A DNA stretch of 64,000 nucleotides from Alphaproteobacteria bacterium (GTDB taxonomy: Bacteria; Pseudomonadota; Alphaproteobacteria; UBA828): contig OZ243972.1 of the NCBI GenBank assembly GCA_965214705.1, positions 3,360,001-3,424,000 of the forward strand, in the 5' to 3' direction. The notes below the pieces were generated by a model. It was not told the DNA's origin and searched no databases. It saw only the letters and a list, made by a program, of their open reading frames with translations. Position numbers and translations under genes: made by a program. Below, in pieces: positions 1,731 through 44,934 of the stretch (the stretch's first letter is position 1; each line of letters begins with the position of its first letter).

Positions 1731-1745
1731 TCTAGGAAATCATCC

Positions 1746-3260: not shown

Positions 3261-3375
3261 ATGAGCGGGAATGCGAGCGGGCACCGTCAGCGAGCGGTGA
3301 TGGCGTCGGATACGGAGTGGGAGATAATCGGCCGGGTGGCGAAACGGCGCAGCATGGACCGCTCGCGCTACCTGA
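3261..3375 (+). pseudogene. Truncated small ribbon-helix-helix/MobC-like ORF (paralog 1)
   Basis: GGAGG RBS, then MSGNASGHRQRAVMASDTEWEIIGRVAKRRSMDRSRYL, matching the ORFs at 17762 and 31215. Similarity stops where the TraA-like sequence begins. Confidence 0.55.
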
Positions 3376-8850: not shown

Positions 8851-8916
8851 TGCATGACCAGGGAAAAGTGCAGGCGGGACCGCGACCGAAATCTGCGGCC
8901 CCGCCTGCGTGCCGCC

Positions 8917-9267: not shown

Positions 9268-9719
9268 GACGACGCCCGGCCCAGGCCCGAGGCCACCGCA
9301 ACAATCCGATCGACCGCGCTCTCCACCGGAAGGCGAACGACCACGCCTAGCGCCTCGATCGCCACCGTCCGCTCGGACGTCACGCTATCAACCACCACGG
9401 GAACAAATGGCGGTGCAGAGCCACCAATCCGAGCGCCCGGAAGAGTTCCCTCCCGCGCGCGCCGCCGCCACTTGGTCAGGGTCGTATCGCTGACGCCATG
9501 GCGGCGCGCGACCGCCGCAACCGAAGAGCCCGGCTCAAAGCTCTCCGAGACAATCCGCGCCTTCTCATCGTCCGGCCAGCGTCGCATGGGGGCCGGCTCA
9601 GACGGAGCCGGGGCGGCTCCCTCAGAAGCTGGGATCTCAACCGAAGCAACAGCGACACCGTCGCCAGATGCCAAAATCGAATCTGTCATCGCGATCTCTC
9701 CTGTGTGGCTCGTGGTCAA
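9264..9719 (-). CDS. tnpA: IS66 accessory HTH protein TnpA
   Basis: RRWPDDEKARIVSES..PGSSVAAVARRHGV...L.KWRR. Confidence 0.9.
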   Translation of the reverse strand: MTTSHTGEIAMTDSILASGDGVAVASVEIPASEGAAPAPSEPAPMRRWPDDEKARIVSESFEPGSSVAAVARRHGVSDTTLTKWRRRAREGTLPGARIGGSAPPFVPVVVDSVTSERTVAIEALGVVVRLPVESAVDRIVAVASGLGRASS

Positions 9720-9934
9720 GGCGGAGAGTCAGCCCCGAAATCAGATCCGCTGGAAGTATGGGGGCCCGATACCGCTTACAGCACAACAGCGCGCACGTGC
9801 CCGTCGCCATGGACGGGAAGGACCTGCGCGGCGCGTCCGCGCAGACCGAAGACGGGCGGCGGATGATGGTCGCAGCGGTGGAGCATGACACCGGCGTCGT
9901 CCTCGGGCAGGTCGAGGTCGACGCCAAGAGCAAC

Positions 9935-11600: not shown

Positions 11601-12107
11601 AGAGCAACGAAATCCCGGCCGTGCGCGAACTCTCCGGCGGTCTCGACCTCACGGGCCGGATCGTCACCATGGATGCCATGCACGCCCTGCACGAGACCGC
11701 GCGCTGCCTCCTTGGGCGCCGTGCCGACTACGTGGTCAGCGCCGTCAAGGACAACCAGGAGACCATCCTCGAAGACCTCAAGGCGATCGACTTCAGCGAT
11801 GCGGCCTGGCACGAAACCGTCGACAAGGGCCATGGCCGCATCGAGCGCCGGCGCTGCGCCGTCGTCGACCTCTCCGCTGCCGAGTGGGACGGCTACGCCA
11901 ACCTTCACGGGCGGCGCCAGGCGATGTGCATCGAACGTGAGCGCGAGATACTCAAAACCGGCAAGCGCAGCATCGAGGTGACCTGGAGCCTGACCTCGCT
12001 TGGCGCAGAGCGGGCCGGACCCGAGGAGCTGCTCGATCTGGTGCGCAGTAAGCGGTATCGGGCCCCCATACTTCCAGCGGATCTGATTTCGGGGCTGACT
12101 CTCCGCC

Positions 12108-12563
12108 TTGACCACGAGCCACACAGGAGAGATCGCGATGACAGATTCGATTTTGGCATCTGGCGACGGTGTCGCTGTTGCTTCGGTTGAGATCCCAGCT
12201 TCTGAGGGAGCCGCCCCGGCTCCGTCTGAGCCGGCCCCCATGCGACGCTGGCCGGACGATGAGAAGGCGCGGATTGTCTCGGAGAGCTTTGAGCCGGGCT
12301 CTTCGGTTGCGGCGGTCGCGCGCCGCCATGGCGTCAGCGATACGACCCTGACCAAGTGGCGGCGGCGCGCGCGGGAGGGAACTCTTCCGGGCGCTCGGAT
12401 TGGTGGCTCTGCACCGCCATTTGTTCCCGTGGTGGTTGATAGCGTGACGTCCGAGCGGACGGTGGCGATCGAGGCGCTAGGCGTGGTCGTTCGCCTTCCG
12501 GTGGAGAGCGCGGTCGATCGGATTGTTGCGGTGGCCTCGGGCCTGGGCCGGGCGTCGTCATGA
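12108..12563 (+). CDS. tnpA: IS66 TnpA
   Basis: Same translation as 9264..9719. Confidence 0.9.
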   Translation: MTTSHTGEIAMTDSILASGDGVAVASVEIPASEGAAPAPSEPAPMRRWPDDEKARIVSESFEPGSSVAAVARRHGVSDTTLTKWRRRAREGTLPGARIGGSAPPFVPVVVDSVTSERTVAIEALGVVVRLPVESAVDRIVAVASGLGRASS

Positions 12564-12910
12564 TCGCGGCCCCCTCGCTTCGCATCGTGTTGGCGACGCG
12601 GCCGGTTGATTTTCGTCGCGGCCACGACGCGCTTGCGGCGACGGCGGCGGGGGAGCTGGACCTCGATATCTATTCCGGGGTGATCGTGATCTTCCGCTCG
12701 CGCCGCGGCGACAGGCTCAAGCTCCTTGCGTGGGACGGCAGCGGTCTGGTGATGACCTACAAGCGTCTGGAGCAGGGCCGCTTCGCCTGGCCTCGGATCG
12801 AGGATGGTGTGATGCGCCTTACGAAGGGCCAGTTCGAGGCCCTCTTCGAGGGTCTGGACTGGCGCCGGGTGAAGGCCCGCCCGGTTCGCCGCCCGCTGGC
12901 GGCGGAGTGA
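12560..12910 (+). CDS. tnpB: IS66 TnpB
   Basis: Same translation as 8917..9267. Confidence 0.95.
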   Translation: MIAAPSLRIVLATRPVDFRRGHDALAATAAGELDLDIYSGVIVIFRSRRGDRLKLLAWDGSGLVMTYKRLEQGRFAWPRIEDGVMRLTKGQFEALFEGLDWRRVKARPVRRPLAAE

Positions 12911-12976
12911 GGCGGCACGCAGGCGGGGCCGCAGATTTCGGTCGCGGTCCCGCCTGCACTTTTCCCTGGTCATGCA

Positions 12977-14719
12977 TTGGCGAATCGGATTAAGGGGTGG
13001 CCCATGCCGAAGGTCACGCCCTCACCCCTCAGCAGCGCCGGTTCGCCGTCGCCTGCGGTGGTTTCGGCGGCGCTGGCGGCCCTGCATGCGGAGCTTGACG
13101 ACGAGCGCGCGGCGCGCCGGGCGACGGAAGCAGCCCTATGCGAAGCGGAGCAGGCACGCGGCGCGGCGGAGGCGGCGAGGCAGACGGCGGAAGCGCGGGC
13201 GGCACGGCTGGAGGCCGAGAACGCGCAGAGCGCGGAGCAGATCAGCCGGCTTGAGCATCTCAACAAGGAGCTCAGGAAGGCGCTGTTCGGTCCGCGCTCC
13301 GAGAAGCTCGGCGAGGACGAGCGCCAGCTTACGTTCGAGGAGTTTTGGGCGGCGATCGCTGAAGCCGGCGGTCGGCCCGAGGCAGATGACCAGGAGCAGG
13401 ACGAGGGGGCTGGCGGCAAGCGCCGGCGGCGCTCTTCCCGGGGGTCGCGCAGCGGGGTGCGCTTCGGGCCCCAGGTCGACCGGCGCGAGGAGGTGATCGA
13501 GCCGGACACGATCATGTGCCCCTGCGGCTGCGGCGAGATGACGAAGATCGGCGAGGACCGCAGCGAGCGGCTGGACTATGAGCCGGCGAAGTTCACCGTC
13601 ATCGAGACCGTGCGCCCCCGCTACGCCTGCAACAAGTGCAAGGGGGGCGGGGTGGTGCAGTCGCCGGCGCCGGCCGCTCTGGTCGAGGGCGGCCTTCCCA
13701 CCGAGGCTCTTCTGGCGCAGGTGCTGATCGCGAAGTACGGCGATCATTGCCCGCTCTATCGCCAGTCGCAGATCTACGAGCGCTCGGGGATCGAGGTTCA
13801 CCGTGCGACGCTGGCGACGTGGGTGGGCCAGGCGTCGTTTCACCTGCGCCCCGTGGTCGCTTGCCTGGAGGATGAGCTGAAGAAGTCGGATCACCTGGGT
13901 CTGGACGAGACCACGATCCGCGTTCTCGACCCGGGCCGGGGCAAGACGAAGACGGGCTACATGTGGACCCTTGTGCGTGACGAGCGCCACTGGAGCGGCA
14001 CGGACCCGCCGGGCGTCGTCTATCGCTATGCGCCCGGCCGCGGCGGCAAGTATGGCGCCGAGCTTATGGAGGGCTTTTCGGGGACGGTGCAGCTCGACGG
14101 CTACTCGGGCCACAACATCCTGGCGCGGCCGGACCGGGCGGAAGGCCCTGTGACGCGGGCCCTCTGTTGGGCGCATGTAAGACGGAAGCTGAAAGAGGTA
14201 TACGACTCGAGCGCATCGCCGATCGCGCTGGCCGGTCTGAATCGGATCGCGAAGCTCTATGCGATCGAGAAGAAGATCCGGGGCAAGCCGCCGGCGGAGC
14301 GCCGCGCGATCCGTTGGGAGGAGTCGGCGCCGATCGTGAACACCTTCGGTGTCTGGCTCGACGAGCAGCGCTCGCGCGTCTCACCGCGCTCGCGTCTCGG
14401 CGAGAAGCTGACCTATATCGCCAACCAGTGGGACGGGCTGCTGGAGTTCCTGCACGACGGTCGTGTCGAGATCGACTCGAACCTGGTGGAAAACCGAATC
14501 CGGCCGCTGAAGCTCACCGCCAAGAACGCGCTCTTCGCCGGCAACGACGAGGGTGCGCAAGCCTGGGCCCGCATCGCCTCGCTGATCGAGACCTGCAAGA
14601 TGAACGGCGTCGAGCCCTACGCCTGGATGCGGAGCACGCTCGAGAAGATCGCCAAGGGCCACCCGCAGTCGGGCATCCAGGAGCTTCTGCCGTGGAACTT
14701 CCAGCCCGAGGCAAAATGA
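12977..14719 (+). CDS. tnpC: IS66 transposase TnpC
   Basis: Same translation as 7108..8850. Confidence 0.95.
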   Translation: MANRIKGWPMPKVTPSPLSSAGSPSPAVVSAALAALHAELDDERAARRATEAALCEAEQARGAAEAARQTAEARAARLEAENAQSAEQISRLEHLNKELRKALFGPRSEKLGEDERQLTFEEFWAAIAEAGGRPEADDQEQDEGAGGKRRRRSSRGSRSGVRFGPQVDRREEVIEPDTIMCPCGCGEMTKIGEDRSERLDYEPAKFTVIETVRPRYACNKCKGGGVVQSPAPAALVEGGLPTEALLAQVLIAKYGDHCPLYRQSQIYERSGIEVHRATLATWVGQASFHLRPVVACLEDELKKSDHLGLDETTIRVLDPGRGKTKTGYMWTLVRDERHWSGTDPPGVVYRYAPGRGGKYGAELMEGFSGTVQLDGYSGHNILARPDRAEGPVTRALCWAHVRRKLKEVYDSSASPIALAGLNRIAKLYAIEKKIRGKPPAERRAIRWEESAPIVNTFGVWLDEQRSRVSPRSRLGEKLTYIANQWDGLLEFLHDGRVEIDSNLVENRIRPLKLTAKNALFAGNDEGAQAWARIASLIETCKMNGVEPYAWMRSTLEKIAKGHPQSGIQELLPWNFQPEAK

Positions 14720-15243
14720 CTCGCGCGCTCACGGCGCTCCTCAAGAAATCCCCGTCGTAGTCAAGCCAGATTCCGGTATGGGGTCTGCGTACCGCTTACG
14801 GTGCGCAACCACTGGCACATCGAGAACCGGCTCCACTATGTGCGTGACTTCACCTACGACGAAGACCGTTGCCGGGCATACGTGCGACACCTGCCCAGAA
14901 ATCTGGCCTGCTTGAGCAATGCGGCCATCGCCATCGTGCGCTACGACGGCCGCTTCCGCTACATACCCGAGGCCAACCGGCACTACGCCGCCCGCGCCCA
15001 GGAGGCCCTCGACGCGATCATGATCGCGCCCATCGGCTGATACCGCCCCCCACCGACACGCATGCACGTGCCGCAGGGCGGCGCGGCGAAACCGCTCCGC
15101 CCGTCCAGGCCGAAAACGCCGCCCGACCGCTTCGAGCAACCACCGTGACGTCGGTCAGGCAGGCTCGGGGCTCCCCCAAACCACCAGCAGCGCGCGCGAT
15201 CTCACTCATCCCGAGCCCGCAGCGCGACTAAAAATTGTTCCTG

Positions 15244-19139: not shown

Positions 19140-20300
19140 TCAGCTGGTGGTGGAGTTGGCCGTACCGGCCAACGCCCGCGCGATGGCCGTGCCGATGCGT
19201 TCAGCCGCCGCTTCAGTCTCCTTGTCGCTCACATGAGCGTAGCGCATGGTCATGCTCGGCCGCCTGTGACCCAGCAGGCGGGAGACGACGGGCAACGGGA
19301 TGCCTTGAAGGACGGCGTGGCTTGCGAACGTGTGACGGAGGTCATGAAGGCGTACATCCTCGATCCTGGCTTCTCTACGCACCAAGTACCAGAGCGGCAG
19401 GTGATGCGAAAGCGGCCGCCTGGAATCCGTCGGCGAGGGGAAGACATATACGCACCCGGTTCGCGTCTGCCGCTCCAGGATGGCGCGCGCCGGCGCACTC
19501 AGAAAGACCCGTCTCGGTCCGGTCTTGGCGTCGGCGAGATTGAGCGTGTCTGCGTCCACGTCCTGCCAGCGCAGCGTCAGGATTTCGCTCTTCCGGCAGC
19601 CGGTCAGCAGCAGAAGGCGGATGACATCCGCTTGCCGCGCCCACGAAGGCCGTGCGCCGGCATAGCAGTCCAGCGCACGGTGGAGACGGCGCACTTCATC
19701 GCGGGACAAGAAGCGAGTGAGCTTCGGGCGGGGGTTCCGCTTGATGCCACGTGCAGGGTTTGTCTGGAGATGGTCGCAAACGATCGCATGGTTCAGGATC
19801 CGGCGGAGAAGGCTCAACGCCTTGTTGGCCGCGCCCGGCGCGGTCCGGCTGTATTCGTCGAACCAGCGGCTCACGCCGGCACGGGTGATCCGATCCAGAG
19901 GCAGCGATCCGAAGACCGGGAGCAAGCGCGCGTCGACGATCCGGCTCGCTTTCTTCCGTGTGGACGGTTTGCCTCTGTCGAAACACGCCCGTCCCGGACC
20001 CGCAGCGAAGTCGCCGAAGGTCGGCACCGCTCCGCGTTCCGGACTGCCGGACCGCGCTCCGGTCTCGATGGCGAGGCACTTGGCGCGCGCCTCCTCGACG
20101 CCCGTCAGCGCCGCAGGTCCCAGCGTGATCCTGCGCGCGCCGTCCTCGCCCCTCCGGCAATAGACGAAGCTGCGGTGCCCCGACGGCCGCACCCGCACGC
20201 CGAGACCCGTCTGGCGCGTGTCCCAGACGGTGTATTCGCGGGCCGCCGGCGTCAGCCGGGCCACGTTGGCGTCGGTCAGACGCCGCCTCTTCGCGGCCAT
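19140..20300 (-). CDS. Tyrosine integrase with N-terminal arm-binding (DUF4102-like) domain
   Basis: VWDTRQTGLGVRVRPSG; TGCRKSE, DAKTG, HDLRH, LLGH, MRYAH. Confidence 0.92.
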   Translation of the reverse strand: MAAKRRRLTDANVARLTPAAREYTVWDTRQTGLGVRVRPSGHRSFVYCRRGEDGARRITLGPAALTGVEEARAKCLAIETGARSGSPERGAVPTFGDFAAGPGRACFDRGKPSTRKKASRIVDARLLPVFGSLPLDRITRAGVSRWFDEYSRTAPGAANKALSLLRRILNHAIVCDHLQTNPARGIKRNPRPKLTRFLSRDEVRRLHRALDCYAGARPSWARQADVIRLLLLTGCRKSEILTLRWQDVDADTLNLADAKTGPRRVFLSAPARAILERQTRTGCVYVFPSPTDSRRPLSHHLPLWYLVRREARIEDVRLHDLRHTFASHAVLQGIPLPVVSRLLGHRRPSMTMRYAHVSDKETEAAAERIGTAIARALAGTANSTTS

Positions 20301-20303
20301 GCG

Positions 20304-21428
20304 TCAGCCCTCAAGGACGGCGCCGACGGTATCGGCCGCCTCGCGCACCATGGCGTCGGCGAGGTGGGTGTACTTTAGGGTCGTTGCCGGATCGCGGTGT
20401 CCGAGCAGGCGGCCGATGATCAGCACCGTCTCGCCCTGCGCCAGCGCCATGCTGGCGTAGGTATGGCGCAAATCGTGAAGTCGGACGTCGCACAAGTCTG
20501 CCTCGGCTCTGATGCGTTGCCAGGCCTGGTCGAGTGCCTTCGTGGTCAGGCAACTGTCGGTTTGCGGCGAGGGAAAGACCCAGACCGCGCTGCGGGGCAG
20601 GCTGTCGAGAACCTCGCGCGCGGCGGACGAGAGCCAGACCGTGCGCGGCCCGGACTTGCTGTCGCGCAGGAACAGCTTGCCCTCTCGGTAGTCGCGCCAT
20701 TCGAGGGTGACGATCTCGCCCTTGCGGCATCCGGTGAGCAGCAGCAGCCGTATGATCGCCGCGGCCTGCGGCCGGCCGGCCTTATGGCGTGCCAGAACCT
20801 TGCCCAGCCGGCGCATCTCCGCCGCCGACAGGAAGCGCTCCCGCCCCTGGCGCCGGTATCGTCTGATGCCCGCGCACGGATTGGTGCCCTCTGGCCGGTA
20901 GCCGTAGACCTCGGCCTGGCGCATGATGACCGACAGGACGGGAGCCGAGCGGTCGGCAGTCACCGGGGTCTCGTGAAGGGATGCGAACCACTGCCGGACG
21001 TCGCTCACGGCGATACCGGCGATCGGTCGGCCTTCGAACCAGGGCAGGATCTGGTTGCGGTAATAGCGCCGGTTGACGTTGAGCGTAGACGGCTTCCAGT
21101 TTCGTGCGTAGCGCCGGAACACTTCGTCGGCGACCGTCTCGAACAGTGTGTCCTGCGGCGCGGCGGCTTGGTCGTCGTCTCCCCTGCGGATCGCGGCCAA
21201 GAGGGCCCTGGCCCGGTCGCGGGCCTCGTCCGTGCCGATGGCACCGGCCTGGCCCACGATCTTCCAGACCCGTCGGCCCTGGTGTTGGCTGTGAATGAAG
21301 TACCGCTTGGCGCCCGAGGGCAGGACCCTGACGCCGAATCCCTTGAGTTCTCGGTCGCGAACGTCGTAGGCGGCCTTTCGGGGCTTGAGCGTGTTGACAC
21401 GGCGTTCGTTGAGGCGAAGCGTAGCCAT
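20304..21428 (-). CDS. Tyrosine integrase with arm-binding domain (upstream member of tandem pair 1)
   Basis: GGAGG RBS before ATG 21428; RDRELKGFGVRVLPSG; TGCRKGE, DSKSG, HDLRH, LLGH, LKYTH. Confidence 0.92.
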   Translation of the reverse strand: MATLRLNERRVNTLKPRKAAYDVRDRELKGFGVRVLPSGAKRYFIHSQHQGRRVWKIVGQAGAIGTDEARDRARALLAAIRRGDDDQAAAPQDTLFETVADEVFRRYARNWKPSTLNVNRRYYRNQILPWFEGRPIAGIAVSDVRQWFASLHETPVTADRSAPVLSVIMRQAEVYGYRPEGTNPCAGIRRYRRQGRERFLSAAEMRRLGKVLARHKAGRPQAAAIIRLLLLTGCRKGEIVTLEWRDYREGKLFLRDSKSGPRTVWLSSAAREVLDSLPRSAVWVFPSPQTDSCLTTKALDQAWQRIRAEADLCDVRLHDLRHTYASMALAQGETVLIIGRLLGHRDPATTLKYTHLADAMVREAADTVGAVLEG

Positions 21429-21588
21429 CGATTTTCCTCCTTCGCTCCGTTGCAGCCGGGGCAAAACGCAGGGCGATTCCGCGCTTTCCGGCCAATGCAG
21501 GAGGAAATAAGCAACGCTATGTCAGTATGTTAGCACCGCAGGTGCGCCCGGTGGTGTCTTCCATCTTGCCGTCGATGTCACGACCGCC

Positions 21589-21837: not shown

Positions 21838-22625
21838 CCCGGATTTCTCACGAGAGGGCTGCGATGGGTGTTTGGTTTGCTTCGGGTGGTTTCTGGTTGG
21901 CCTGGCTGCGCCTTCCGGGCGAAGGCGCAGCGGTAGCGGTGGCGCCGGGGGCGCGGTTGAAGTCGGAGCGGGTTCTTCGTTGTTGGCGGGAGGGTGGCGG
22001 GGTTCTGGGTGTCAGGTCAGGTGAATAATCGGGCGTGGGCGCGCGTGAACGCGGGCGCGTGGGGTGCGCCTGTTGCCATGGCAATGCGGATGCACCGGGT
22101 GCTGATGCGGACCTGGGCGCCGATCTTCAGCAGCTTGAGGCGGATCGAGCCGCAGGTGGCGCGGGCGAGGCGGGTGCCGGCGAGCGCGATGCGTCTCAGC
22201 GCGGCCAGCAGCACGTAAGCCATGGCGGCGAACCAGAGGCGGAGTTGGTTGGCGCGCATGGTCTGAGCCGAGGTGCGGTCTGCGAAGAGGTCGAGCTGGC
22301 ACTCCTTGATGCGGTTCTCCATGTCGGCGCGTGCGCAGTAGAGTTGCTCGTAGAGCTCCCGCCGCCCGATGGCGGCCGCGCTCAGCGAGGTGACGACGAA
22401 GCGGGGGTTGGCGCCGGCCGGGAGCCACTCCGCCTTGCCGACGACGCGGCGCCGCACGCGACTAGGTCTTGCGCGTGCGGTAGCGGAACTCGGTGAACAG
22501 GCGCGCCGTCTGGCCGCTCTCCCGCGCGCGCCTCGGCCAGGTCCATGGCCGGTTGCAGGCGGTCCGTGAGGCGCGGGTTGCGCCCGAGCCCGAAGACGTA
22601 GTCCACGCCGTTCGCCTCGCACTAG
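21838..22625 (-). pseudogene. IS1380-family 3' remnant (frameshifts/stop; 5' part lost at IS1634)
   Basis: RRVVGKAEW, NPRFVVTSL, YCARADMENRIKECQLDLFADRTS, ANQLRLWF; terminal ...GTGAGAAATCCGGG on the minus strand at 21838. Confidence 0.85.
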
Positions 22626-24656
22626 CCCGACTTCCGCAACTCGGGGGTTATGAGGGTGCTAACCCATTGATTCTCCGTGATCGGACCCCCAAAGGTCGGC
22701 ACTACAGAGCGCCGAACGGAGGGGCGGTCCGTGCGCAGTCAGGCGGAGAACCGCGGCCCGGGCTGTTGCGGCAGGGTCATGCCGATACCCGGAACAAGTC
22801 CGGGCAGGTGCAGTAGAAGCTCGTGCTCCTTGTTCGGCCGGGTGTGGCGCGGCAGGATCAAGTGCCGGCCGTCGGTGGTCGGCAGGTGGACGTCCACCAT
22901 CTGGATGGTGGCGAACGCCTCGATGATGGCGCGGGGCGTCAGCCCGTTGGCGCGCGGGCGGGCGAGGTTCTTCAGCGTGACCAGCAGGCAGTAGGCAATG
23001 AAGGAGACGAAGATGTGCGCCTCGATCCGCTTCTCGCGCTGATGGAAGATGGGACGGATGGCGAGGTCGTGCTTGAGCTCCTTGAACGCCTGCTCGATCT
23101 CGATCAACTGCATGTACAGGTGCCAGAGCGTGGCGGGGTCTTCGGCGGTCATGTTGGATCGCAAGAGGTAGCGGCCCTCTCGGCGGCGCACGCGGCGTAG
23201 CCGGTCGCGCCGCAGGCGGAATGAGAAGCCGTCGGCGGCGAGTTCCTTGTCGGTCTCGGGCACGCGGATGCCGACCAGGTTCCAGGCCCGGCCCACCTCC
23301 TTCCTGGCGGCGCCGAGCTTGAGCATCAGTTGATCTCGGCTGTTGGACTGCCCTTGCAGCTCGCGCAACCGGTGCCACAGCTTCTTGAGCCGCCGCCGAC
23401 GCATGCCGCGTTCCTTCAGCTGCCGCCCCTCGCTGCGCACCAGGACGTAGAGTTCGCCGTCTTCGACCAGCAGCTTGACGTTCACGGACTGGCGCACCTC
23501 CTGCCAGGGCAGATCCAGGAATGCCTTCTCCAGCCGCGTCAGCCGCCCCTTCGGCGTGCCCACCAGATAGCGCACCGGCGCCTCACCCGCGCGCATTGCC
23601 GCCAGCGTCTCCTCGGTAGGGATGCCACGGTCCATGATCCAGATCCGGTCGGAGCGGCCGTATTGCCGTTCGATCTTCTCGAGGAACCCCGCCAGCGTGG
23701 TCTGGTCGGCGGTATTCCCCGGCATCACCTCGTAGGCCAGCGGGAAGCCCTCGGGCGTCACGATCAGCGCGATCACCACCTGCACGCAGTCAGGCCGCTT
23801 GTCCCGGCTGTAGCCGAAGCGGCGCTTGTCCTCGAACGGCGGGTCGCTCTCGAAGTACGTGCTGGTCAGATCATACAGCAGGACATCGAAGCGCGCGTCG
23901 AACAGCGCCGCCCAGCGGCCGCGCAGGAACGAGAAGAAGTCCTGCTTGTGCTCCAGCAGCTTGTCGAGGCAGCGATACAGTGTGTCGTCGGCGACCGCCC
24001 GGTCGCTGCCCAGCAGATCGCGCAACGCGCTGTGCTCGTACCAGTGACGGTGAAGACGCCACTCGCTGCCCGGATCGATCAGCCGGTAGCAGGCCTGGAT
24101 CTTCAGGATGTCCAGCCACCTCGTGCCTTGCCGGCTCGGCGGCAGGCGCGGACCCCAGAAGCGGTCCAGATCAAGACGGTCCCACAACGCCAAGGCCAGC
24201 CAGCACGCCCCCCACTGGCGCGGGTCGTGAAGCGCCACCTCCGAGACGTTGATCTTGACCACTTCGCAGTTCAGCGCCGGCGCCTCCCGATCCTCGGGAA
24301 AGAGCGCCATCTGACGCGACCCCGACTTGCCCTCCACCACCTCGATCGAGCGGCACCACGCCGCGCGCTGATTGTCGTTGATCTCGCCGAGATAGAGAAC
24401 GTGGCGCTGAACGACCCGGCCGCCGCGGACCCGGACGTTCTCCACCACGCTCCAGTAGCGGTGCTCCTTGCCGTCTTTGAAGCGTCTCTTGCAGCGCACG
24501 AACATGGTCGAATCGTCCGCCGCCGCGGCACCCCGATCAAGGGGGTAGGTCGGCACTACACGCGGTTCTGGAAGGGCAAAGCCCGGAAATCCGCCACTTT
24601 CCGGGCCGAAAAACCGTCAAATTGGCCGAATCGCGTGCCGAGTTGCGGAAGTCGGG
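22626..24656 (-). mobile_element. IS1634-family element
   Basis: Perfect 19-bp IR cccgacttccgcaactcgg at both ends; no clear TSD. Confidence 0.9.
22739..24505 (-). CDS. IS1634-family transposase
   Basis: MFVRCKRRFKDGKEHRYWSVVEN, LLYDLTSTYFE, GYSRDKRPD, MDRGI, IEQAFKELK..LAIRPIFH, RIEAH. Confidence 0.93.
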   Translation of the reverse strand: MFVRCKRRFKDGKEHRYWSVVENVRVRGGRVVQRHVLYLGEINDNQRAAWCRSIEVVEGKSGSRQMALFPEDREAPALNCEVVKINVSEVALHDPRQWGACWLALALWDRLDLDRFWGPRLPPSRQGTRWLDILKIQACYRLIDPGSEWRLHRHWYEHSALRDLLGSDRAVADDTLYRCLDKLLEHKQDFFSFLRGRWAALFDARFDVLLYDLTSTYFESDPPFEDKRRFGYSRDKRPDCVQVVIALIVTPEGFPLAYEVMPGNTADQTTLAGFLEKIERQYGRSDRIWIMDRGIPTEETLAAMRAGEAPVRYLVGTPKGRLTRLEKAFLDLPWQEVRQSVNVKLLVEDGELYVLVRSEGRQLKERGMRRRRLKKLWHRLRELQGQSNSRDQLMLKLGAARKEVGRAWNLVGIRVPETDKELAADGFSFRLRRDRLRRVRRREGRYLLRSNMTAEDPATLWHLYMQLIEIEQAFKELKHDLAIRPIFHQREKRIEAHIFVSFIAYCLLVTLKNLARPRANGLTPRAIIEAFATIQMVDVHLPTTDGRHLILPRHTRPNKEHELLLHLPGLVPGIGMTLPQQPGPRFSA

Positions 24657-24912
24657 ATAGGGCGGTTTTCGGCCGACAATCCCACGATCACGCGGCAGCG
24701 GAGGGGCCCCCCGACTGCCGGCCGGGCACCGCCTCCGCCGGATAGACCGCCCCCACCCCGGTACGGGTCGACCGGAAGCGCGAGCCCGGCGCTCGCCGCC
24801 CTCACGGACGCACGGGCGACGGCACGGGCTACCGCCAAGCCGATGTCGCGGATATGATCGCCTGCCGGTGCCGCCCAGCGCTCCGGCTACCCTGACCATC
24901 GAGCAAGCGGGC

Positions 24913-27648
24913 ATGGCGTCGAGGAAGCACAGCCGCAAGGGGCGCAGGCGCAAGCGGCCTGGCAAGGTCACCGCCGTCCAGCAGCTGAATCAGGCCCGTC
25001 GGCGGCTGGCCAGCGGGGACGCCCGCGGCGCCCTCGATCTCCTGAAGCGGGTGCCGGACGGGGAGCACGACCCGGCAGGCAAGGCGTGCCTGCATTTCTG
25101 CGCTCTGACGCAGCGGGCCCGTCAACTGGCACGGCGGGGCCAGAAGAAGGAGGCGGCCGCCATGCGCGCGCGGGCCGCCGAGCAGCGGTCATCCATCCCT
25201 GCCGGGGCGCTGGGGGAGGAGGACCTGATGAGCTACCTCCGCCATCTTGATCCTGGCGAGGCGGTCGCAACCTACGCGGGATACATGAAGGAGAGATCGC
25301 CGATCGCCGGGGCTGAGCGCCTGCTCGCCGACAGGCTAGTGACCCGGCGGTGCTGGGCGAGTCTGGACGCGCTCGACGCGAGCCATGCGCTTCGCCGCGA
25401 CGCGGACCACGTCATGCGCGGCCTCGACGCGATGGACGCGGGAGAGTGGGAGCGTGCGGCGGATCTGCTGCGCGGGCTGCACCGGCGCTCGCCGTTCGCG
25501 GCCTGGCGCGTGTTCTGCAAGGCGATGGCGTGTTTCGGTGCCGGCGACGACGAGGGCCTGCGCCGTGCGGCGGACCTTCTGCCCGGGGAGTTCGCGCTTG
25601 CCGGCATCGTCGCCGAGTTGCGGCGGGCTGGCGGGGGCGGGGGCAAGGGCGGCTCTTCCAGGGTTCAGCGGGCCCTGGGAACGGACGGCGCGACGGTCTC
25701 GGAGCTGGGCGAGGAGTTGCGCCAGGCTCTTCGCAGGAACGAGCGCGAGCGGGTCATCGAGCGACTGATGAGCCGCCTGGCCGATGCACTCAGCCCCGAC
25801 GATCCCCTGCCGGCGCTTGTCGATCTGGTGCAGATTGCGGGCTTGGCCACCGCGCGCAGCCACCTCTCCATGGGCGCAGTGGAGCGGCTGGCACAGCACC
25901 TTCTGCCGGCCAGGCGGGTTCCGGGCCTGATCTCCAGGATCGGGTTGGTTCTTCAGCAGGCCTCCCTGGGCGCATGGAACCCCGGTGCGGCGGGATCCCT
26001 GCTGGGCCGCCTTCGCGAGGAGTTCCCCCGGTCCGGGGATCATGGTCTGGTTCGGGGCCGCGTATACGAGGCGCTGGCGAGGATCGGACATCGGAGCGTG
26101 CAGCCGGAGCTGCTGCCGGCCCCGAAGGTGCGGGAGCTGATCCTGCTTCTCGATGGGCGGTCCTTCGAGGCCGGGACGGTGTTTGCCGATCTGATGCAGG
26201 AGAGCCTGCTGGCCGATCCCGGCAACCGCGACGGCTATCGCTTCCTGGCGGAGCTGTTGCGGGGCCGCAGGCAGGACAGGAACCGTCTGCGGCGGGTGCT
26301 GGAGGACACGGCGTCCCGATTTCCCGAGGATGCTGAGCCCTGGCTTGAGTTGACCGAGCTTCACTACGCCGGCAATGCGTACCGGCGGGCGGAGGAGGCT
26401 CTTGCCGAGGCCCGGCGGCGCGCTCCGCATGACGAGCGCATCGTCGGCCTGCAGGCGGTGGGCTTCCTCAAGTCATCGGACCAGAGCCGCAAGAGCGGAC
26501 GGTTCGAGCTGGCGGCCCGGGATTTGCAGCGGGCCGAGGCGCTGGGGGGCTCCCGGCTGACAGACATCGTGCCGGTGAAGAGGCTTCTGCTGGACCTGGT
26601 GTCGTCGGGCGGGGATGCCGCCGCGGTCGTGGTTCCCCGTCTTTCCGCCCTGCCTCCTGCCGGGCAGATCAGGACCCTGGCGCTGCTGCTTCACGAGCTG
26701 GAAGCGAACAGCACCGTCAGGAACGTCACGCCCGAGATGACGCATGCCGTGCGAGGCCTTCTGGCTCTCAGGGCGCCCATGATCGATGACATCGATGGGG
26801 AGGAGGCGGCCGGTCTTCTGGCTCCCCTCCCAGGGGATTTTCGGATCCTCTATGGCCGCCTTCATGTCGCGCCGGTCCTGGCCGACTTCTGGGGCGCGAT
26901 CATGCGCGGGCAGCGGGACGACGGTCTGCTGGATGTCTTCGACATTCTGCTGGACTGCGGCGGCCGGGCTGCCGTGCGGGCCGAGATCGGGCTTCGCCTA
27001 GCCGGAACGAGCAAGGCGGAGCGGGATCCGTTGCTGCTCCTGTACCTTGCGGCGATCCGCTACCAGGAAGGCGACGACGACGATTCCCGGCGCTTCTTTG
27101 AGGCGCTGGAATCGGCAGCCCCGTCCGAGCGCGAGCGCCTGCGGGTGGGAGCCGGGCGGCTTGCCCGGGTCAGCGCGGGCATCCTGCGCGAAGCGCTTCA
27201 CACGTTCGACTTCGGGCTTCTGGACCCGCCCGAGCCGCTGTTCGGGGGCGACGCTCCGGGACCGCTCTCGAGCCTTCTGGACGAGATCCTGGGACCCGAG
27301 GAAGAGCCGTCCGGAGAAGAACCGTCTCTCGACGCGTTCCTGGATGCTCTGAGGGTCGGCCTGCAGGCGGGATTGCCGGGCCAGCCCTGCCAGACCTCGT
27401 TGTTCGACGACGACGAGGCGGCACGTGAGCTGGAGACGCTGGAAGGCTTGATCGACCGGCACTGGCTTCGCGGGGTTCCCTCTCCGCTGCTGAGGGAGGT
27501 GGCGGAGGTGGCGAGAGCGGAGCCTGGGATTCGGCACAACCTGGACCGCAGCGCCCGCACGTGCGAGGAGTCGGGGCTTCGCGACGGGCTGAGCCGGGAG
27601 GCGCGTATCTTCCTCTTTCCCCGCAAGCAGGGTCGCCGGAGGGCGTAG
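24913..27648 (+). CDS. Large all-helical, TPR-containing protein of unknown function (first gene of the Hsp70 operon)
   Basis: About 910 aa. TPR-like segments such as FPEDAEPWLELTELHYAGNAYRRAEEALAEARRRAPHD, basic N-terminus, acidic linker near the C-terminus. An alternative GTG start lies at 24868. Confidence 0.75.
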   Translation: MASRKHSRKGRRRKRPGKVTAVQQLNQARRRLASGDARGALDLLKRVPDGEHDPAGKACLHFCALTQRARQLARRGQKKEAAAMRARAAEQRSSIPAGALGEEDLMSYLRHLDPGEAVATYAGYMKERSPIAGAERLLADRLVTRRCWASLDALDASHALRRDADHVMRGLDAMDAGEWERAADLLRGLHRRSPFAAWRVFCKAMACFGAGDDEGLRRAADLLPGEFALAGIVAELRRAGGGGGKGGSSRVQRALGTDGATVSELGEELRQALRRNERERVIERLMSRLADALSPDDPLPALVDLVQIAGLATARSHLSMGAVERLAQHLLPARRVPGLISRIGLVLQQASLGAWNPGAAGSLLGRLREEFPRSGDHGLVRGRVYEALARIGHRSVQPELLPAPKVRELILLLDGRSFEAGTVFADLMQESLLADPGNRDGYRFLAELLRGRRQDRNRLRRVLEDTASRFPEDAEPWLELTELHYAGNAYRRAEEALAEARRRAPHDERIVGLQAVGFLKSSDQSRKSGRFELAARDLQRAEALGGSRLTDIVPVKRLLLDLVSSGGDAAAVVVPRLSALPPAGQIRTLALLLHELEANSTVRNVTPEMTHAVRGLLALRAPMIDDIDGEEAAGLLAPLPGDFRILYGRLHVAPVLADFWGAIMRGQRDDGLLDVFDILLDCGGRAAVRAEIGLRLAGTSKAERDPLLLLYLAAIRYQEGDDDDSRRFFEALESAAPSERERLRVGAGRLARVSAGILREALHTFDFGLLDPPEPLFGGDAPGPLSSLLDEILGPEEEPSGEEPSLDAFLDALRVGLQAGLPGQPCQTSLFDDDEAARELETLEGLIDRHWLRGVPSPLLREVAEVARAEPGIRHNLDRSARTCEESGLRDGLSREARIFLFPRKQGRRRA

Positions 27649-27651
27649 GCG

Positions 27652-27957
27652 ATGCTGGCTCACTATCTTGCTCTGGGGCTTTCCCCCTCCGCCTCGCGGG
27701 AGGAGGTTCGCCGGCGCTACCTCGAGCTGATCCGGGCGCATCCGCCGAGCCGGGAGCCGGCGTACAGCGAGCGGATCGTGGCCGCCTACGAAGCCCTGAA
27801 GGACGATCGCTCGCGCGTGGAGACGGCGATGTTCGGGATGTCCCGGCATGGCGATTTCGAGCTGGCTCTGGACGCGCTGGTGCAGGCGCGGCCGCGCGGG
27901 CGTGCCACCCCGGGCCTGCAGGCGCTGATTGCGGCGGAAGGCGCAGAGGATGAGTGA
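27652..27957 (+). CDS. J-domain-like protein with HPP in place of HPD
   Basis: HYLALGLSPSASREEVRRRYLELIRAHPPSREP...IVAAYEALKD follows J helices I-III. Confidence 0.85.
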   Translation: MLAHYLALGLSPSASREEVRRRYLELIRAHPPSREPAYSERIVAAYEALKDDRSRVETAMFGMSRHGDFELALDALVQARPRGRATPGLQALIAAEGAEDE

Positions 27958-28617
27958 GCCTGACGGCGACTGGAAGCGCCGCGCCCTTGAGGATTTCGGG
28001 CACTGGCTCGACGAACTGGAGGAGGAGGACAGCGGCGACGGCGGGACCGGTATAGCGCCGGAGCCAGATTTGCGCGACTTGTTCGCCGAGCTTGCGGCGC
28101 TGCGCCAGGAGGTCCGGCTGCAAAACCGCGAGCAGTCGAAGGCGGGCCGGGAGCTTGCCCAGGCGGCGGCACGCTACGACGGCGCTGCGGCGTTGATGAA
28201 GCGCCGCGAGGACGATCTTGCGGCATTCGAGACGCGGGTCTCGCGCGAGGCCGAGAACCGCTGCCTGCGCTCTGTTCTCGAGGTGCGCGATGCCCTGGTC
28301 CGGGGCTTGGAGGCAGGGACGGCGCTGCGCGAACGCCCCGGCTTGTTCCGCCGCCCGCCGCGGGGTATGCGCGGCGTCGCCGAGGGCTACGAGATCGCAC
28401 TCAGGCGTTTCGACCGGATGCTGTCCGGGTTCGGGGTCGAGCGCCTGCGGACCGCAGGCCAGCCGTTCGATGCGCGCACCATGCACGCGGCGGAGGTCCG
28501 CCGGGTCGCGGGGGTCGGGAGCGGCATGGTGGTCGAGGAGCTGCTCAGCGGCTACACCCGGGGCGGCGACATTCTGCGCCTCGCCGAGGTGGCCGTGAAC
28601 CGCAACGAGAGGCAGGA

Positions 28618-28621
<4 letters not shown>
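27950..28621 (+). CDS. GrpE-like nucleotide exchange factor with N-terminal extension
   Basis: Long coiled coil, then GVERL..AGQPFDARTMHAAEV...GMVVEELLSGY...GDILRLAEVAV; overlaps the J-gene stop. Confidence 0.88.
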
Positions 28622-30396
<1,775 letters not shown>

Positions 30397-30400
30397 GCCG

Positions 30401-30760
30401 GTGCTCCGCTGCCCGACCTGCGGCGCCGGGGGGATCGAGGGCCCGACATGCCACCGCTGCCGGACCGACCTGCGCCAGGTGCTGGCCGTCGAGCGGGCCG
30501 CTGCGCAGTGCCGGCGGCGGGCGGCGGCCGCGCTGGCAAGCGGCTGCGGCGACCGGGCGCGCGCCCTTGCGGACAGGGCCTGCGCACTCCACCGCTGCCA
30601 TGCGTCCGTTTCCCTGCGCGCCGCGGCCGCGCTCGTCGATGGCGAGTTCGGCTTGGCCCTCCGTCTGTGGCGGGAGGTCCGAAGCGGGCCGCCGGACAAC
30701 CCCGCTCCGGCGAACGCACGCGCTTCTATCGCTCCCTCGCCCGCCGTTCCACGAAACTGA
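30401..30760 (+). CDS. Small Zn-ribbon + TPR-like protein
   Basis: GTG start 4 bp after the Hsp70 stop; RCPTC...CHRCRTDL followed by Ala-rich helical pairs. Confidence 0.7.
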   Translation: MLRCPTCGAGGIEGPTCHRCRTDLRQVLAVERAAAQCRRRAAAALASGCGDRARALADRACALHRCHASVSLRAAAALVDGEFGLALRLWREVRSGPPDNPAPANARASIAPSPAVPRN

Positions 30761-30816
30761 GTGCCGCGCAGGCGATGAGTCCGGAGCGGGATACCCCCTC
30801 CCGCGATGCGGCTTCG

Positions 30817-31215
30817 TCAATGATCGCAAGCAGGCGCGATGGCACCGAGAGCTGCCCAGCGCGTGGGACGGCTCACCGATCCCTTGCTCCGAAGGGCGTA
30901 TACGAGAGGCGATCGTGCGCTCGGCCGCGAGAGGGCATCCTCCCAGGCATCGACGGCATCGCCAAGCGCGTTCCAGCGCTCCTCCAGCCCCATGTCGGCC
31001 ATGCGCTGTTGCTCGATCCTGGCGAGCAGCAGAAGCTCGCGCACCGTGCGGCGCAGAACGCTATCCGGCAGCGGGTCCGGCGCGCTCGCCCTGTGCACGA
31101 TGTAGCGCGAGAGATCCATGCCCGCGTCGGCAGCGAGTTCGCGAATGCGCGCCCATTCGCTTGCTGTCGTCATCACCGCGTGCTGTGTGCGGCGCTCCGT
31201 CGGCCGGCGGCTCAT
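30817..31215 (-). CDS. RHH/MobC-like small DNA-binding protein (paralog 3, longest)
   Basis: RRTQHAVMTTASEWARIRELAADAGMDLSRYIVHRA..PDPLP shows a strand-helix-helix pattern; the true C-terminus is uncertain. Confidence 0.6.
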   Translation of the reverse strand: MSRRPTERRTQHAVMTTASEWARIRELAADAGMDLSRYIVHRASAPDPLPDSVLRRTVRELLLLARIEQQRMADMGLEERWNALGDAVDAWEDALSRPSARSPLVYALRSKGSVSRPTRWAALGAIAPACDH

Positions 31216-42787: not shown

Positions 42788-42863
42788 TCTGTCTCCGTTG
42801 TAACGACGCAACCGGGATAAATTGAGGCGCAACGCTAACCCGCGCGGACAAGAGGTGCCACAC

Positions 42864-44927: not shown

Positions 44928-44934
44928 ATCGTGA

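What the first reader, a model, noticed from the sequence alone, without database searches (positions are those of the whole stretch)
24913..30760. Self-contained five-gene Hsp70 system (TPR protein, HPP J-like protein, GrpE, Hsp70, Zn-ribbon/TPR) inside a decayed mobile/defence island
Seen: five co-oriented genes separated by 3-4 bp gaps or overlaps (27648/27652, 27957/27950, 28621/28618, 30396/30401). All are intact although much of the surrounding island is broken by IS activity. Known: Hsp70 needs a J protein and a nucleotide exchange factor, and specialised bacterial Hsp70s (HscA/HscB, HscC/DjlBC) serve dedicated clients. Inference: this is a private chaperone cycle whose client or sensor is the ~910-aa helical protein, with the Zn-ribbon/TPR protein as adaptor. 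Its place in the same island as an RM gene, DUF4238 and an EEP nuclease suggests a chaperone-gated anti-phage or stress/conflict system. I know of no experimental description, but I could not search for one.
Basis: partly seen in the sequence, partly recalled or inferred. Interest (0 to 1): 0.8.

Follow-up and report, generated by a model that had tools for sequence, protein, structure and literature searches.

The report
Portable five-gene specialised Hsp70 cassette
A compact operon encodes a second, non-housekeeping Hsp70 chaperone with its own exchange factor, an odd J-like helper, a small zinc-ribbon/TPR protein and a 911-residue TPR scaffold; it moves as one unit between distant bacterial phyla and its job is still unknown.

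Summary
Window 24913-30760 (+) carries five tightly packed, intact genes: a 911-aa TPR solenoid, a 101-aa J-like protein, GrpE, a 589-aa Hsp70 and a 119-aa zinc-ribbon/TPR protein. All are under purifying selection. The same order recurs in 52 of 63 related loci, and 8 more are cut by a contig end. These loci come from Alpha- and Gammaproteobacteria, Binatia, Latescibacterota, Acidobacteriota, Spirochaetia and a Syntrophobacterales MAG.

The cassette alone is the repeated unit (window 24822-30944). This genome has three copies, and one Vicinamibacterales MAG has at least five. The large protein was found in 0 of 400 other genomes sampled from the same class.

The Hsp70 is not DnaK: every host tested has a separate DnaK. 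It is also not HscA. It lies in a large, undescribed clade of about 580-aa Hsp70s with an LFYLE-type C-terminus, sister to the HscC clade. The J-like protein lacks HPD in 60 of 60 sequences.

I found no support for a defence role. PADLOC gave no system, and neighbours hit defence models no more often than random genes (13% against 11%). I read it as a private, mobile Hsp70 machine built around the TPR scaffold.

I found no published description. This scan noted the same cassette earlier in another genome.

The parts
24822..24912 (+). 5' leader of the repeated unit (presumed promoter region)
   Evidence: Identity to the two other copies in this genome begins sharply at 24822. The scans found no sigma-70 consensus, CIRCE or HAIR element.
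24913..27648 (+). TPR911: 911-aa all-alpha TPR solenoid. It has a basic N-terminal tail, an acidic disordered linker (774-803) and a small C-terminal helical domain (806-901).
   Evidence: Pfam TPR_19 only. AF2 model has pLDDT 84. Foldseek finds only generic long TPR scaffolds such as Ski3, Ctr9, Naa15 and IFT-A, with TM 0.13-0.21. There are 195 homologues; the 120 listed range from 729 to 1031 aa (mostly about 900) and the only name given is 'hypothetical protein'. The basic N-terminus is conserved in character.
27652..27957 (+). J101: 101-aa J-like protein. The J-domain fold has H-P-P-S in place of HPD, followed by a conserved extension of about 40 aa.
   Evidence: PF00226 scores 27.9 bits against a cut-off of 27.8. 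No HPD in 60 of 60 sequences; the loop reads H/Y-[P/R]-[P/V/T]-[S/G/A]. It resembles the N-terminal J-domains of E. coli DjlB and DjlC, which read HPE.
27950..28621 (+). GrpE-type nucleotide exchange factor (223 aa)
   Evidence: PF01025 scores 66.6 bits. It is below every NCBIfam GrpE equivalog cut-off. Found in 59 of 63 loci.
28627..30396 (+). Hsp70 (589 aa) of an LFYLE-tail clade sister to HscC
   Evidence: PF00012 scores 464 bits. The DnaK models score 490 and 484, below cut-offs of 648 and 822. It forms its own clade in the trees. For the 8-aa insertion in SBD-beta loop L1,2, the short lid and the retained loop that HscA and HscC lack. The tail [ILVM]-L-F-[YF]-[LV]-[EDG] is present in 51 of 53 sequences.
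30401..30760 (+). Zn119: four-Cys zinc ribbon plus four helices (two TPR-like repeats)
   Evidence: C4, C7, C17 and C20 are invariant in 45 sequences. AF2 pLDDT is 87. TPR-fold matches are not specific: Foldseek best E 0.16; VIA Z 10-11.7. No Pfam hit. dN/dS is 0.38 against the second copy in this genome.
30761..30944 (+). 3' tail of the repeated unit
   Evidence: Identity to the other two copies ends sharply at 30944. The scan found no terminator.
22618..24664 (-). IS4-like insertion sequence next to the cassette (context, not part of it)
   Evidence: 27-nt inverted repeats, 93% complementary. DDE_Tnp_1 transposase at 22739-24556.

Best explanation
The cassette encodes a private, horizontally mobile Hsp70 machine.

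Shown:
- Five co-inherited genes form the unit.
- The Hsp70 is full-length, with conserved ATPase motifs, linker and substrate-binding domain.
- A cognate GrpE is present.
- A J-domain-fold protein has a non-HPD loop.
- A zinc-ribbon/TPR protein and a long TPR solenoid complete the set.

Inferred:
- GrpE recycles the Hsp70.
- J101 is the targeting factor. It is related in style to DjlB/DjlC of the HscC system, and its conserved C-terminal extension docks on a partner.
- Zn119 and/or TPR911 use TPR grooves to hold the conserved Hsp70 C-terminal LFYLE tail or J101.
- TPR911 is therefore the platform or dedicated client on which the ATPase cycle acts.

The divergent J loop and the dedicated GrpE would keep the system apart from the host DnaK-DnaJ-GrpE system. 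That separation would explain why it works after transfer between phyla. The physiological output is not known. It is an accessory trait of a few, possibly host-associated, lineages.
For: - Gene order is kept in 52 of 63 loci, and 8 more are cut by a contig end.
- A distant AT-rich relative, L097, has the same five genes in the same order.
- All genes compared have dN/dS 0.15-0.54.
- Beyond the five genes, no flanking gene cluster occurs in more than 8 of the 64 stretches compared (63 loci plus the window).
- The repeat unit equals the cassette in this genome and in a Vicinamibacterales MAG.
- A separate housekeeping DnaK is present in 6 of 6 genomes checked, scoring 882-932 bits against 381-454 bits for the best module-type Hsp70 of each genome.
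- The module Hsp70s form one clade with support 100, on a long stem away from DnaK.
- The loop that HscA and HscC lack is retained, which fits use of GrpE (passages of PMC8215388).
- No HPD in 60 of 60 J101 sequences, yet the fold and extension are conserved.
- The Hsp70 tail is conserved in 51 of 53 sequences.
- Both partner proteins are TPR folds.
Against: - No physical interaction was tested, because the complex prediction never ran.
- TPR fold matches are generic: Z is below the level the tool gives for helical repeats, and TM is 0.13-0.21.
- A loop with Pro, Ser or Gly where Asp should be may mean that J101 cannot stimulate the ATPase at all. In that case the role of targeting factor would be wrong.
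- The LFYLE tail is shared by a much wider Hsp70 clade. I did not see the partners of that clade, so the tail may be a structural lid element rather than a docking motif.
- The only RNA evidence is contigs of a relative in one metatranscriptome.
Confidence: 0.6

Rival explanations
1. It is a chaperone-gated anti-phage or conflict system. TPR911 senses an invader protein, and the Hsp70 cycle sets a threshold or triggers a response.
For: - In this window and in the two other copies in this genome it lies among integrases, IS elements and restriction-modification fragments.
- Some neighbours elsewhere are of defence or toxin-antitoxin type: Cas1-Cas2, an HEC-06 protein, AbiLi/PDC-M38A ATPases, HipA, Fic, NYN and SLFN-AlbA2.
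- Predicted conflict systems with HSP70, GrpE and DnaJ- or TPR-fused proteins exist around GAP1-N2 GTPases (passages of PMC7159879).
- Distribution is patchy and the cassette is transferred horizontally.
Against: - None of the five proteins has a recognisable effector domain such as a nuclease, protease, pore-former or NADase.
- PADLOC gives no system.
- Neighbours hit PADLOC models in 20 of 150 cases, against 15 of 132 random ORFs from this genome.
- Within several lineages the cassette sits in conserved synteny with metabolic genes.
- Five or more near-identical copies in one genome is unusual for a defence system.
Confidence: 0.12
2. It is an accessory stress-tolerance module that adds general protein-folding capacity (heat, oxidative or host-derived stress). 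In this reading Zn119 is a redox-sensitive holdase like Ruc.
For: - The Hsp70 and GrpE look catalytically complete.
- A four-Cys zinc ribbon next to an Hsp70 recalls Ruc. Ruc is a redox-activated chaperone that binds DnaK and is often encoded beside dnaK, dnaJ and grpE (passages of PMC7448276).
- Several copies per genome could be a dosage effect.
Against: - There is no canonical DnaJ with HPD and client-binding domains in the cassette.
- A 911-aa TPR protein is always co-inherited, which points to one dedicated partner.
- CIRCE and HAIR are found in 0 of 64 upstream regions, and loose sigma-32-like matches in 3 of 64.
- Zn119 has a folded TPR domain (pLDDT about 98 over residues 31-90), not the disordered tail that defines Ruc.
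Confidence: 0.12
3. It is cargo that serves a mobile element. The Hsp70 set would remodel a nucleoprotein complex (integration, replication or transfer) of the island that carries it, as host DnaK, DnaJ and GrpE do for lambda and P1 replication (recalled knowledge).
For: - A tyrosine integrase lies next to the cassette in the two other copies in this genome.
- Tandem integrases lie upstream here and directly upstream in L053.
- The unit has sharp ends and occurs in several copies.
- TPR911 has Arg/Lys-rich termini that could bind nucleic acid.
Against: - Most loci in other phyla have no integrase or transposase next to the cassette.
- I noticed no terminal inverted repeats or target-site duplications when reading the unit ends.
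- The cassette contains no recombinase, replication or transfer gene.
Confidence: 0.08

Closest known systems
E. coli HscC with DjlB/DjlC (locus ybeQ-ybeR-djlB-ybeT-ybeU-djlC-hscC)
   Same: - Both are specialised, non-essential Hsp70s encoded beside their own J proteins and TPR-like (Sel1) repeat proteins.
- The Hsp70 shares with HscC the lobe-I deletion, the PY after the linker, an insertion in loop L1,2 and a short lid (passages of PMC8215388).
- In the 119-row tree the module's clade is sister to the HscC clade.
- The J-domains are N-terminal, look alike and are not HPD: DjlB and DjlC read HPE.
   Different: - The module Hsp70 lies outside the 19-row HscC clade and is 35.6% identical to E. 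coli HscC.
- It keeps the loop that HscC lacks and has its own GrpE, whereas HscC is thought not to use GrpE (PMC8215388 passages).
- J101 is 101 aa, against 475 and 483 aa for DjlB and DjlC, which the review describes as tail-anchored.
- The repeat partner is one 911-aa TPR solenoid plus a Zn-ribbon/TPR protein.
- Module HMMs for TPR911 and Zn119 hit none of YbeQ, YbeR, YbeT or YbeU.
Housekeeping DnaK-DnaJ-GrpE
   Same: A full Hsp70 with a GrpE partner. The ATPase motifs, linker and beta-sandwich are conserved. The best solved match is Geobacillus DnaK 2v7y, E 5.7e-111.
   Different: - 37-39% identity to DnaK.
- Below the NCBIfam DnaK cut-offs.
- A separate clade.
- No canonical DnaJ.
- Each host keeps its own DnaK.
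AtcJ-AtcC of Shewanella oneidensis (short J-domain protein with a C-terminal extension that binds an operon partner)
   Same: A very short J protein whose C-terminal extension is the likely docking element for a protein encoded in the same operon (abstracts of PMC6715715 and of preprint 10.64898/2026.09.07.749886, as listed).
   Different: AtcJ has a functional J-domain and recruits the housekeeping DnaK. Here the J loop is not HPD, and the operon brings its own Hsp70 and GrpE.
GAP1-N2 GTPase-centred predicted conflict systems with HSP70 and GrpE (Kaur et al. 2020)
   Same: HSP70 plus GrpE linked to proteins that carry DnaJ or TPR modules (passage of PMC7159879).
   Different: Those systems are defined by a GAP1-N2 GTPase and an FNIII-repeat protein, and occur mainly in actinobacteria and firmicutes. 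None of the five proteins here has a GTPase or FNIII domain.
Ruc (M. tuberculosis Rv0991c) zinc-ribbon chaperone; eukaryotic TPR co-chaperones of the Hsp70 EEVD tail (Hop, CHIP, Sgt2)
   Same: - Zn119 has a four-Cys zinc ribbon next to an Hsp70 gene, as Ruc often does.
- Its helical half overlays small TPR domains that bind Hsp70/Hsp90 tails, for example Sgt2 with an Ssa1 peptide: Z 11.3, rmsd 1.8 over 75 residues.
- The Hsp70 has a conserved C-terminal motif.
   Different: - Ruc has a disordered C-terminus, not a TPR domain.
- The fold matches are generic for TPR.
- The tail is hydrophobic/acidic (LFYLE), not EEVD.
- No binding was tested.

Membership tests
DnaK (housekeeping Hsp70) | Reaches NCBIfam DnaK equivalog cut-offs | tested here: not met
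   NF001413 scores 490.4 against a cut-off of 648. TIGR02350 scores 483.9 against 822.55.
DnaK (housekeeping Hsp70) | Groups with the DnaKs of its hosts in a tree | tested here: not met
   51 module Hsp70s form one clade (SH-aLRT 100), separated from 6 host DnaKs by about 2.4 changes per site in total. The result is the same with E. coli DnaK added.
DnaK (housekeeping Hsp70) | Is the genome's only full Hsp70 of this kind | tested here: not met
   This genome has a DnaK at G000:C1:184725-186509 scoring 932 bits. The 5 other host genomes have DnaKs of 882-927 bits.
HscC-type Hsp70 | Deletion in NBD lobe I (DnaK 76-101) and a 4-8 aa insertion in loop L1,2 of SBD-beta (criteria from PMC8215388 passages) | tested here: met
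   The alignment with E. coli DnaK, HscA and HscC shows the lobe-I gap and an 8-aa insertion.
HscC-type Hsp70 | GrpE-signature loop absent and no use of GrpE | tested here: not met
   The loop aligned to DnaK 283-296 is present here but deleted in E. coli HscA and HscC. A GrpE gene is part of the cassette.
HscC-type Hsp70 | Falls inside the HscC clade | tested here: not met
   FastTree of 119 rows places E. coli HscC in a 19-row clade (99). The module lies in the sister 68-row clade (97). Only one named HscC was in the tree, so the limits of 'HscC' are those of this sample.
HscA | Reaches the HscA model cut-off and lies in an isc operon with HscB | tested here: not met
   TIGR01991 scores 390.9 against a cut-off of 708.55. 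There are no isc genes beside the cassette.
J-domain proteins (PF00226) | J-domain profile match | tested here: met
   27.9 bits against a cut-off of 27.8, over residues 4-55. This is marginal.
J-domain proteins (PF00226) | His-Pro-Asp tripeptide between helices II and III | tested here: not met
   0 of 60 sequences have HPD. 57 start the loop with H and 3 with Y, and none has Asp at the third place. The distant relatives L097 and L096 read NPPD and FPPD.
GrpE (PF01025) | GrpE profile match | tested here: met
   66.6 bits against a cut-off of 25.8. It is below all NCBIfam GrpE equivalog cut-offs.
Known or candidate anti-phage systems (PADLOC-DB 2.0) | Component proteins match a system's models | tested here: not met
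   4 of 5 proteins have no hit. The Hsp70 hits PDC-M61B at E 6e-4, 16.6 bits.
GAP1-N2 GTPase-centred HSP70-GrpE systems (Kaur 2020) | A GAP1-N2 GTPase and an FNIII-repeat protein in the operon | tested here: not met
   Pfam finds neither a GTPase nor an FNIII domain in the five proteins. No flanking gene is conserved across loci.
Ruc family | N-terminal four-Cys zinc ribbon followed by a disordered hydrophilic tail | tested here: not met
   Four invariant Cys are present. The rest is a confident helical TPR domain with block pLDDT 92-98. Sequence relatedness to Ruc itself was not tested.
TPR co-chaperones that bind Hsp70 C-terminal tails | TPR groove binds the terminal peptide of the Hsp70 | not testable with these tools
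   The fold match is generic. The complex prediction was never accepted by the queue.

The most novel reading that the evidence does not exclude
This may be a bacterial counterpart of the eukaryotic Hsp70 'tail code'. In this reading, a whole clade of about 580-aa bacterial Hsp70s ends in a conserved LFYLE-type C-terminus that is read by dedicated TPR partners, here Zn119 and/or the 911-aa solenoid. Together with a non-HPD J-like protein and a private GrpE, this would make an orthogonal chaperone machine, insulated from DnaK. It could then be moved between phyla as a 6-kb plug-in, and host-associated marine bacteria would have picked it up repeatedly.
Probability: 0.2. Interest if true: 0.8.

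Novelty: new variant of a known kind. Interest (0 to 1): 0.68.

Why it matters
A review of bacterial Hsp70s recognises three types: DnaK, HscA and HscC (PMC8215388). A 2026 review calls the other DnaK derivatives largely unexplored 'dark matter' (PMC13580251).

This cassette is a clean, compact and well-conserved example, with all its presumed partners encoded side by side. That makes an unstudied Hsp70 branch directly testable. Open questions include:
- What does a J-like protein without HPD do?
- Does a bacterial TPR protein read an Hsp70 tail?
- What is a 911-aa TPR solenoid for?

The cassette also shows that a complete chaperone cycle can spread horizontally as one unit.

Tried and rejected
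Complex prediction:
- There is therefore no result on binding of any pair.

TPR911:
- Foldseek against PDB gave only generic long TPR scaffolds, TM 0.13-0.21.
- The protein Atlas gave only unnamed or TPR clusters.

Zn119:
- Foldseek best E was 0.16.
- VIA wide gave Z up to 11.7, below the level the tool quotes for helical repeats.
- The Atlas gave unnamed clusters of about 100 aa.

Metagenome scan with the sister-clade alignment:
- The 80 loci kept were almost all housekeeping grpE-dnaK-dnaJ operons.
- Only L096 and L097 were relevant, so I could not survey the partners of the wider LFYLE-tail clade.

Regulatory and positional scans:
- Promoter and terminator scan: 0 sites.
- CIRCE and HAIR: 0 of 64 upstream regions.
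- No tRNA gene in the window.

RNA:
- One metatranscriptome, labelled coral metagenome, holds contigs 93-98% identical to parts of four of the five genes.
- These are contigs of a relative. They do not show transcription of this locus, and the parts without cover say nothing.

Ideas rejected:
- The two flanking IS4-like transposases do not form a composite transposon. They are different elements, and the repeated unit ends inside them, at 24822 and 30944.
- A conserved proline-rich Hsp70-binding motif in the TPR911 linker. The linker is variable.
- A compensating change at the DnaK Arg that faces the J-domain Asp. The Arg before IINEPTAA is kept. Its role is recalled, not read here.

Full report
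**Observation.**
Window 24913-30760 holds five co-oriented ORFs.
  - a 3-nt gap at 27648/27652;
  - an 8-nt overlap at 27950/27957;
  - a 4-nt overlap at 28618/28621, or a 5-nt gap if the Hsp70 starts at ATG 28627, as its homologues suggest;
  - a 4-nt gap at 30396/30401.
- Codon-position GC is gene-like for the first four genes, with GC3 0.82-0.90. It is acceptable for the fifth (0.84).
- Pfam finds TPR_19 in the 911-aa protein, a marginal DnaJ domain in the 101-aa protein (27.9 bits against a cut-off of 27.8), GrpE and HSP70, and nothing in the last protein.
- All genes that could be compared evolve under purifying selection, with dN/dS 0.15-0.54. The comparisons were with the second copy in this genome, a Rhodospirillales MAG and an alphaproteobacterial MAG.

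**Conservation.**
- The 911-aa protein has 195 homologues at E <= 0.001. Of the 120 listed, most are about 900 aa (range 729-1031). The only name any source gives is 'hypothetical protein'.
- A scan of one genome per prokaryotic species returned 63 loci, all from MAGs. They are titled as Rhodospirillales and other Alphaproteobacteria, Gammaproteobacteria, Binatia, Latescibacterota, Vicinamibacterales/Acidobacteria, Spirochaetia and Syntrophobacterales.
- By tblastn, 52 of 63 loci have all five genes in the same order within 5.6-6.4 kb. Another 8 show the first one to four genes and then the contig ends. The remaining 3 are a lone TPR gene (L022) or fragments (L068, L071).
- Median identity to the window proteins is 49% (TPR911), 70% (J101), 62% (GrpE), 72% (Hsp70) and 63% (Zn119).
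- An AT-rich metagenome contig, L097, has the same five genes in the same order with much lower similarity. Its TPR HMM score is only 35 bits.
- Outside the five genes, no flanking gene cluster is shared by more than 8 of the 64 stretches compared (63 loci plus the window).
- Flanks are conserved only within lineages and are mostly metabolic. Examples are PQQ dehydrogenase, an aminotransferase, a TPP enzyme, hydantoinase, xanthine dehydrogenase and PhyH.

**Mobility and copy number.**
- This genome (7.9 Mb, 3 contigs) has three copies. The window copy matches the other two at 97% identity exactly from 24822 to 30944, that is 91 nt before the first ATG to 184 nt after the last stop.
- The other two copies are 99.97% identical to each other. 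Each has a convergent tyrosine integrase downstream. One has its zinc-ribbon gene split by an IS66 copy 99.96% identical to those at window 7028-9779 and 12048-14799.
- One Vicinamibacterales MAG has five complete copies and a fragment, 94-99.8% identical to each other. Again only the cassette is shared between them. Besides its DnaK, that genome gives 10 further Hsp70 matches.
- I noticed no terminal inverted repeats or target duplications when reading the unit ends.
- The large protein was found in 0 of 400 other genomes sampled from the same class, including 3 of the same family.
- In the Hsp70 tree, copies group by phylum. That fits a few transfers between phyla followed by inheritance and duplication within lineages.

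**What kind of Hsp70.**
- The protein scores below the DnaK and HscA model cut-offs.
- It is 38.6% identical to this genome's DnaK, 36.9% to E. coli DnaK, 38.2% to HscA and 35.6% to HscC.
- All 6 genomes checked have a separate DnaK.
- The module Hsp70s form one clade (support 100) on a long stem.
- A search of 1.84 billion cluster representatives gave many full-length relatives of about 580 aa at 40-66% identity. Many end in a [DE]-[LI]-L-[FY]-[FY]-[LV]-E motif like the module's LDEILFYLE.
- In a 119-row tree, the module lies in a 68-row clade (support 97) that holds most of these tail-bearing proteins. That clade is sister to a 19-row clade containing E. coli HscC.
- The few named members are simply 'Hsp70 family protein', from Kiritimatiellia and Planctomycetota.
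- An alignment with E. coli DnaK, HscA and HscC shows HscC-like traits: the lobe-I deletion, PY after the linker, an 8-aa insertion in loop L1,2 and a short lid.
- The same alignment shows that the module keeps the loop aligned to DnaK 283-296, which HscA and HscC lack. The review PMC8215388 ties that loop to GrpE use (passages read).

**The helpers.**
- *J101* has the J-domain helices, but its loop is H-P-P-S or H-R-P-G. None of 60 sequences has HPD, and the distant relatives read NPPD or FPPD.
- E. coli DjlB and DjlC, the J proteins of HscC, read HPE and resemble J101 over the whole J-domain. A deviant loop is therefore a family trait and not proof of inactivity. Even so, Pro, Ser or Gly for Asp is not conservative.
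- That HPD is required for ATPase stimulation is established knowledge, recalled here.
- J101 also has a conserved extension of about 40 residues. A comparable case is AtcJ of Shewanella, whose C-terminal extension binds an operon partner (abstracts listed).
- *Zn119* has four invariant Cys and a confident model of a zinc ribbon plus four helices. The helical part overlays small TPR domains. Several of these bind Hsp70 or Hsp90 tails, but at scores that are generic for TPR.
- *TPR911* is a confident all-alpha solenoid (pLDDT 84). It has a basic N-terminal tail, an acidic disordered linker and a small C-terminal domain.
- Its fold matches are only to long TPR scaffolds such as Ski3, Ctr9 and Naa15. 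No enzymatic domain was seen in any of the five proteins.

**Test of the defence reading.**
- PADLOC finds no system.
- I took up to three ORFs on each side of the cassette in 57 loci: 304 ORFs in 204 clusters. I scanned the first 150 clusters, and 20 had a PADLOC hit at E <= 1e-8.
- As a control I used 132 ORFs from 10 randomly drawn 16-kb regions of this genome, of which 15 had a hit.
- The control is crude. It uses one genome that is rich in restriction-modification genes, and four of the ten regions fell on the small contig. It still gives no sign of enrichment.
- Some neighbours are nevertheless real defence or toxin-antitoxin genes: Cas1-Cas2 in L030, an HEC-06 protein in L019, AbiLi-like ATPases, HipA, Fic and NYN.

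**Mechanism.**
- Shown: a co-inherited set made of a complete Hsp70, a GrpE, a J-fold protein, a Zn-ribbon/TPR protein and a TPR solenoid. The set is distinct from the host DnaK system and is mobile as a unit.
- Inferred:
  - GrpE recycles the Hsp70.
  - J101 targets the Hsp70.
  - One or both TPR proteins hold the Hsp70 tail or J101.
  - TPR911 is the platform or client.
  - The divergent J loop and private GrpE insulate the system from the host's.
- The output of the system is unknown.

**Literature.**
- Six full-text searches found no description of this gene set.
- I read passages, not whole papers, of the following:
  - PMC8215388, which describes three bacterial Hsp70 types;
  - PMC13580251, which calls the derivatives 'dark matter';
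  - PMC11019930, on DnaK paralogues, which does not mention TPR;
  - PMC11090510, on the CoCoNuT Hsp70-like CnuD, which has degenerate ATPase motifs and is not linked to GrpE or DnaJ in the text;
  - PMC7159879, on GTPase-centred systems with HSP70 and GrpE;
  - PMC7448276, on Ruc.
- I did not open supplements. Those of PMC7159879 and PMC13580251 may list related neighbourhoods.
My results agree with it. Its remark on sponge symbionts was not tested here. The only habitat label I saw is 'coral metagenome' on one RNA run that holds a relative.

**Caveats.**
- My ORF calling in the loci is heuristic.
- The trees are quick searches, with a single named HscA and a single named HscC.
- No interaction, expression or phenotype was tested.

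Noticed in passing
window 7028-9779 and 12048-14799: Two inverted IS66 copies, each with an identical 580-aa transposase. A third copy, 99.96% identical, splits the zinc-ribbon gene of the cassette copy on contig C3 (L092 11803-14554). The element is therefore recently active in this genome.
   Followed up: partly
window 19140-21464 (-): Two tandem tyrosine integrases, 386 aa each. A similar pair lies directly upstream of the cassette in L053, an alphaproteobacterial MAG. In the window an IS4-like element, a transposase fragment and a cold-shock-domain gene lie between the integrases and the cassette.
   Followed up: partly
window 21-7066: A type ISP restriction-modification C-terminal domain ORF (21-1730), an AAA_30/TraI-like helicase (3212-5395), and an ORF that joins a DruA-like domain to a DDE_Tnp_1-associated domain (6050-7066). 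A longer DruA-like/DDE_Tnp_1 ORF lies next to the C3 copy of the cassette (L092 3075-5087).
   Followed up: no
window 42822-46761 and 51806-55811: Two hydantoinase/oxoprolinase A-B gene pairs with ABC transporter genes. Hydantoinase A or B genes also flank the cassette in Binatia loci (L012, L059). This is probably a shared habitat trait rather than a functional link.
   Followed up: no
L093 (E. coli K-12 djlB, djlC): The J-domains of DjlB and DjlC read HPE, not HPD. This is relevant to how strictly the Asp is needed in HscC-type systems.
   Followed up: partly
proteins P0126-P0275: A large, mostly unnamed clade of about 580-aa bacterial Hsp70s ends in an LFYLE-like motif: 46 of 119 tree rows by a strict pattern in the last 16 residues. 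I could not survey their gene neighbourhoods.
   Followed up: partly
L030 14107-16438: In one Vicinamibacterales copy, a Cas4-Cas1 fusion and cas2 lie directly downstream of the cassette.
   Followed up: no
G000 (whole genome): The assembly is reported at 98.47% completeness and 8.72% contamination. Its random regions are rich in restriction-modification genes, TraI/RecD-like helicases and a group II intron-type reverse transcriptase.
   Followed up: no
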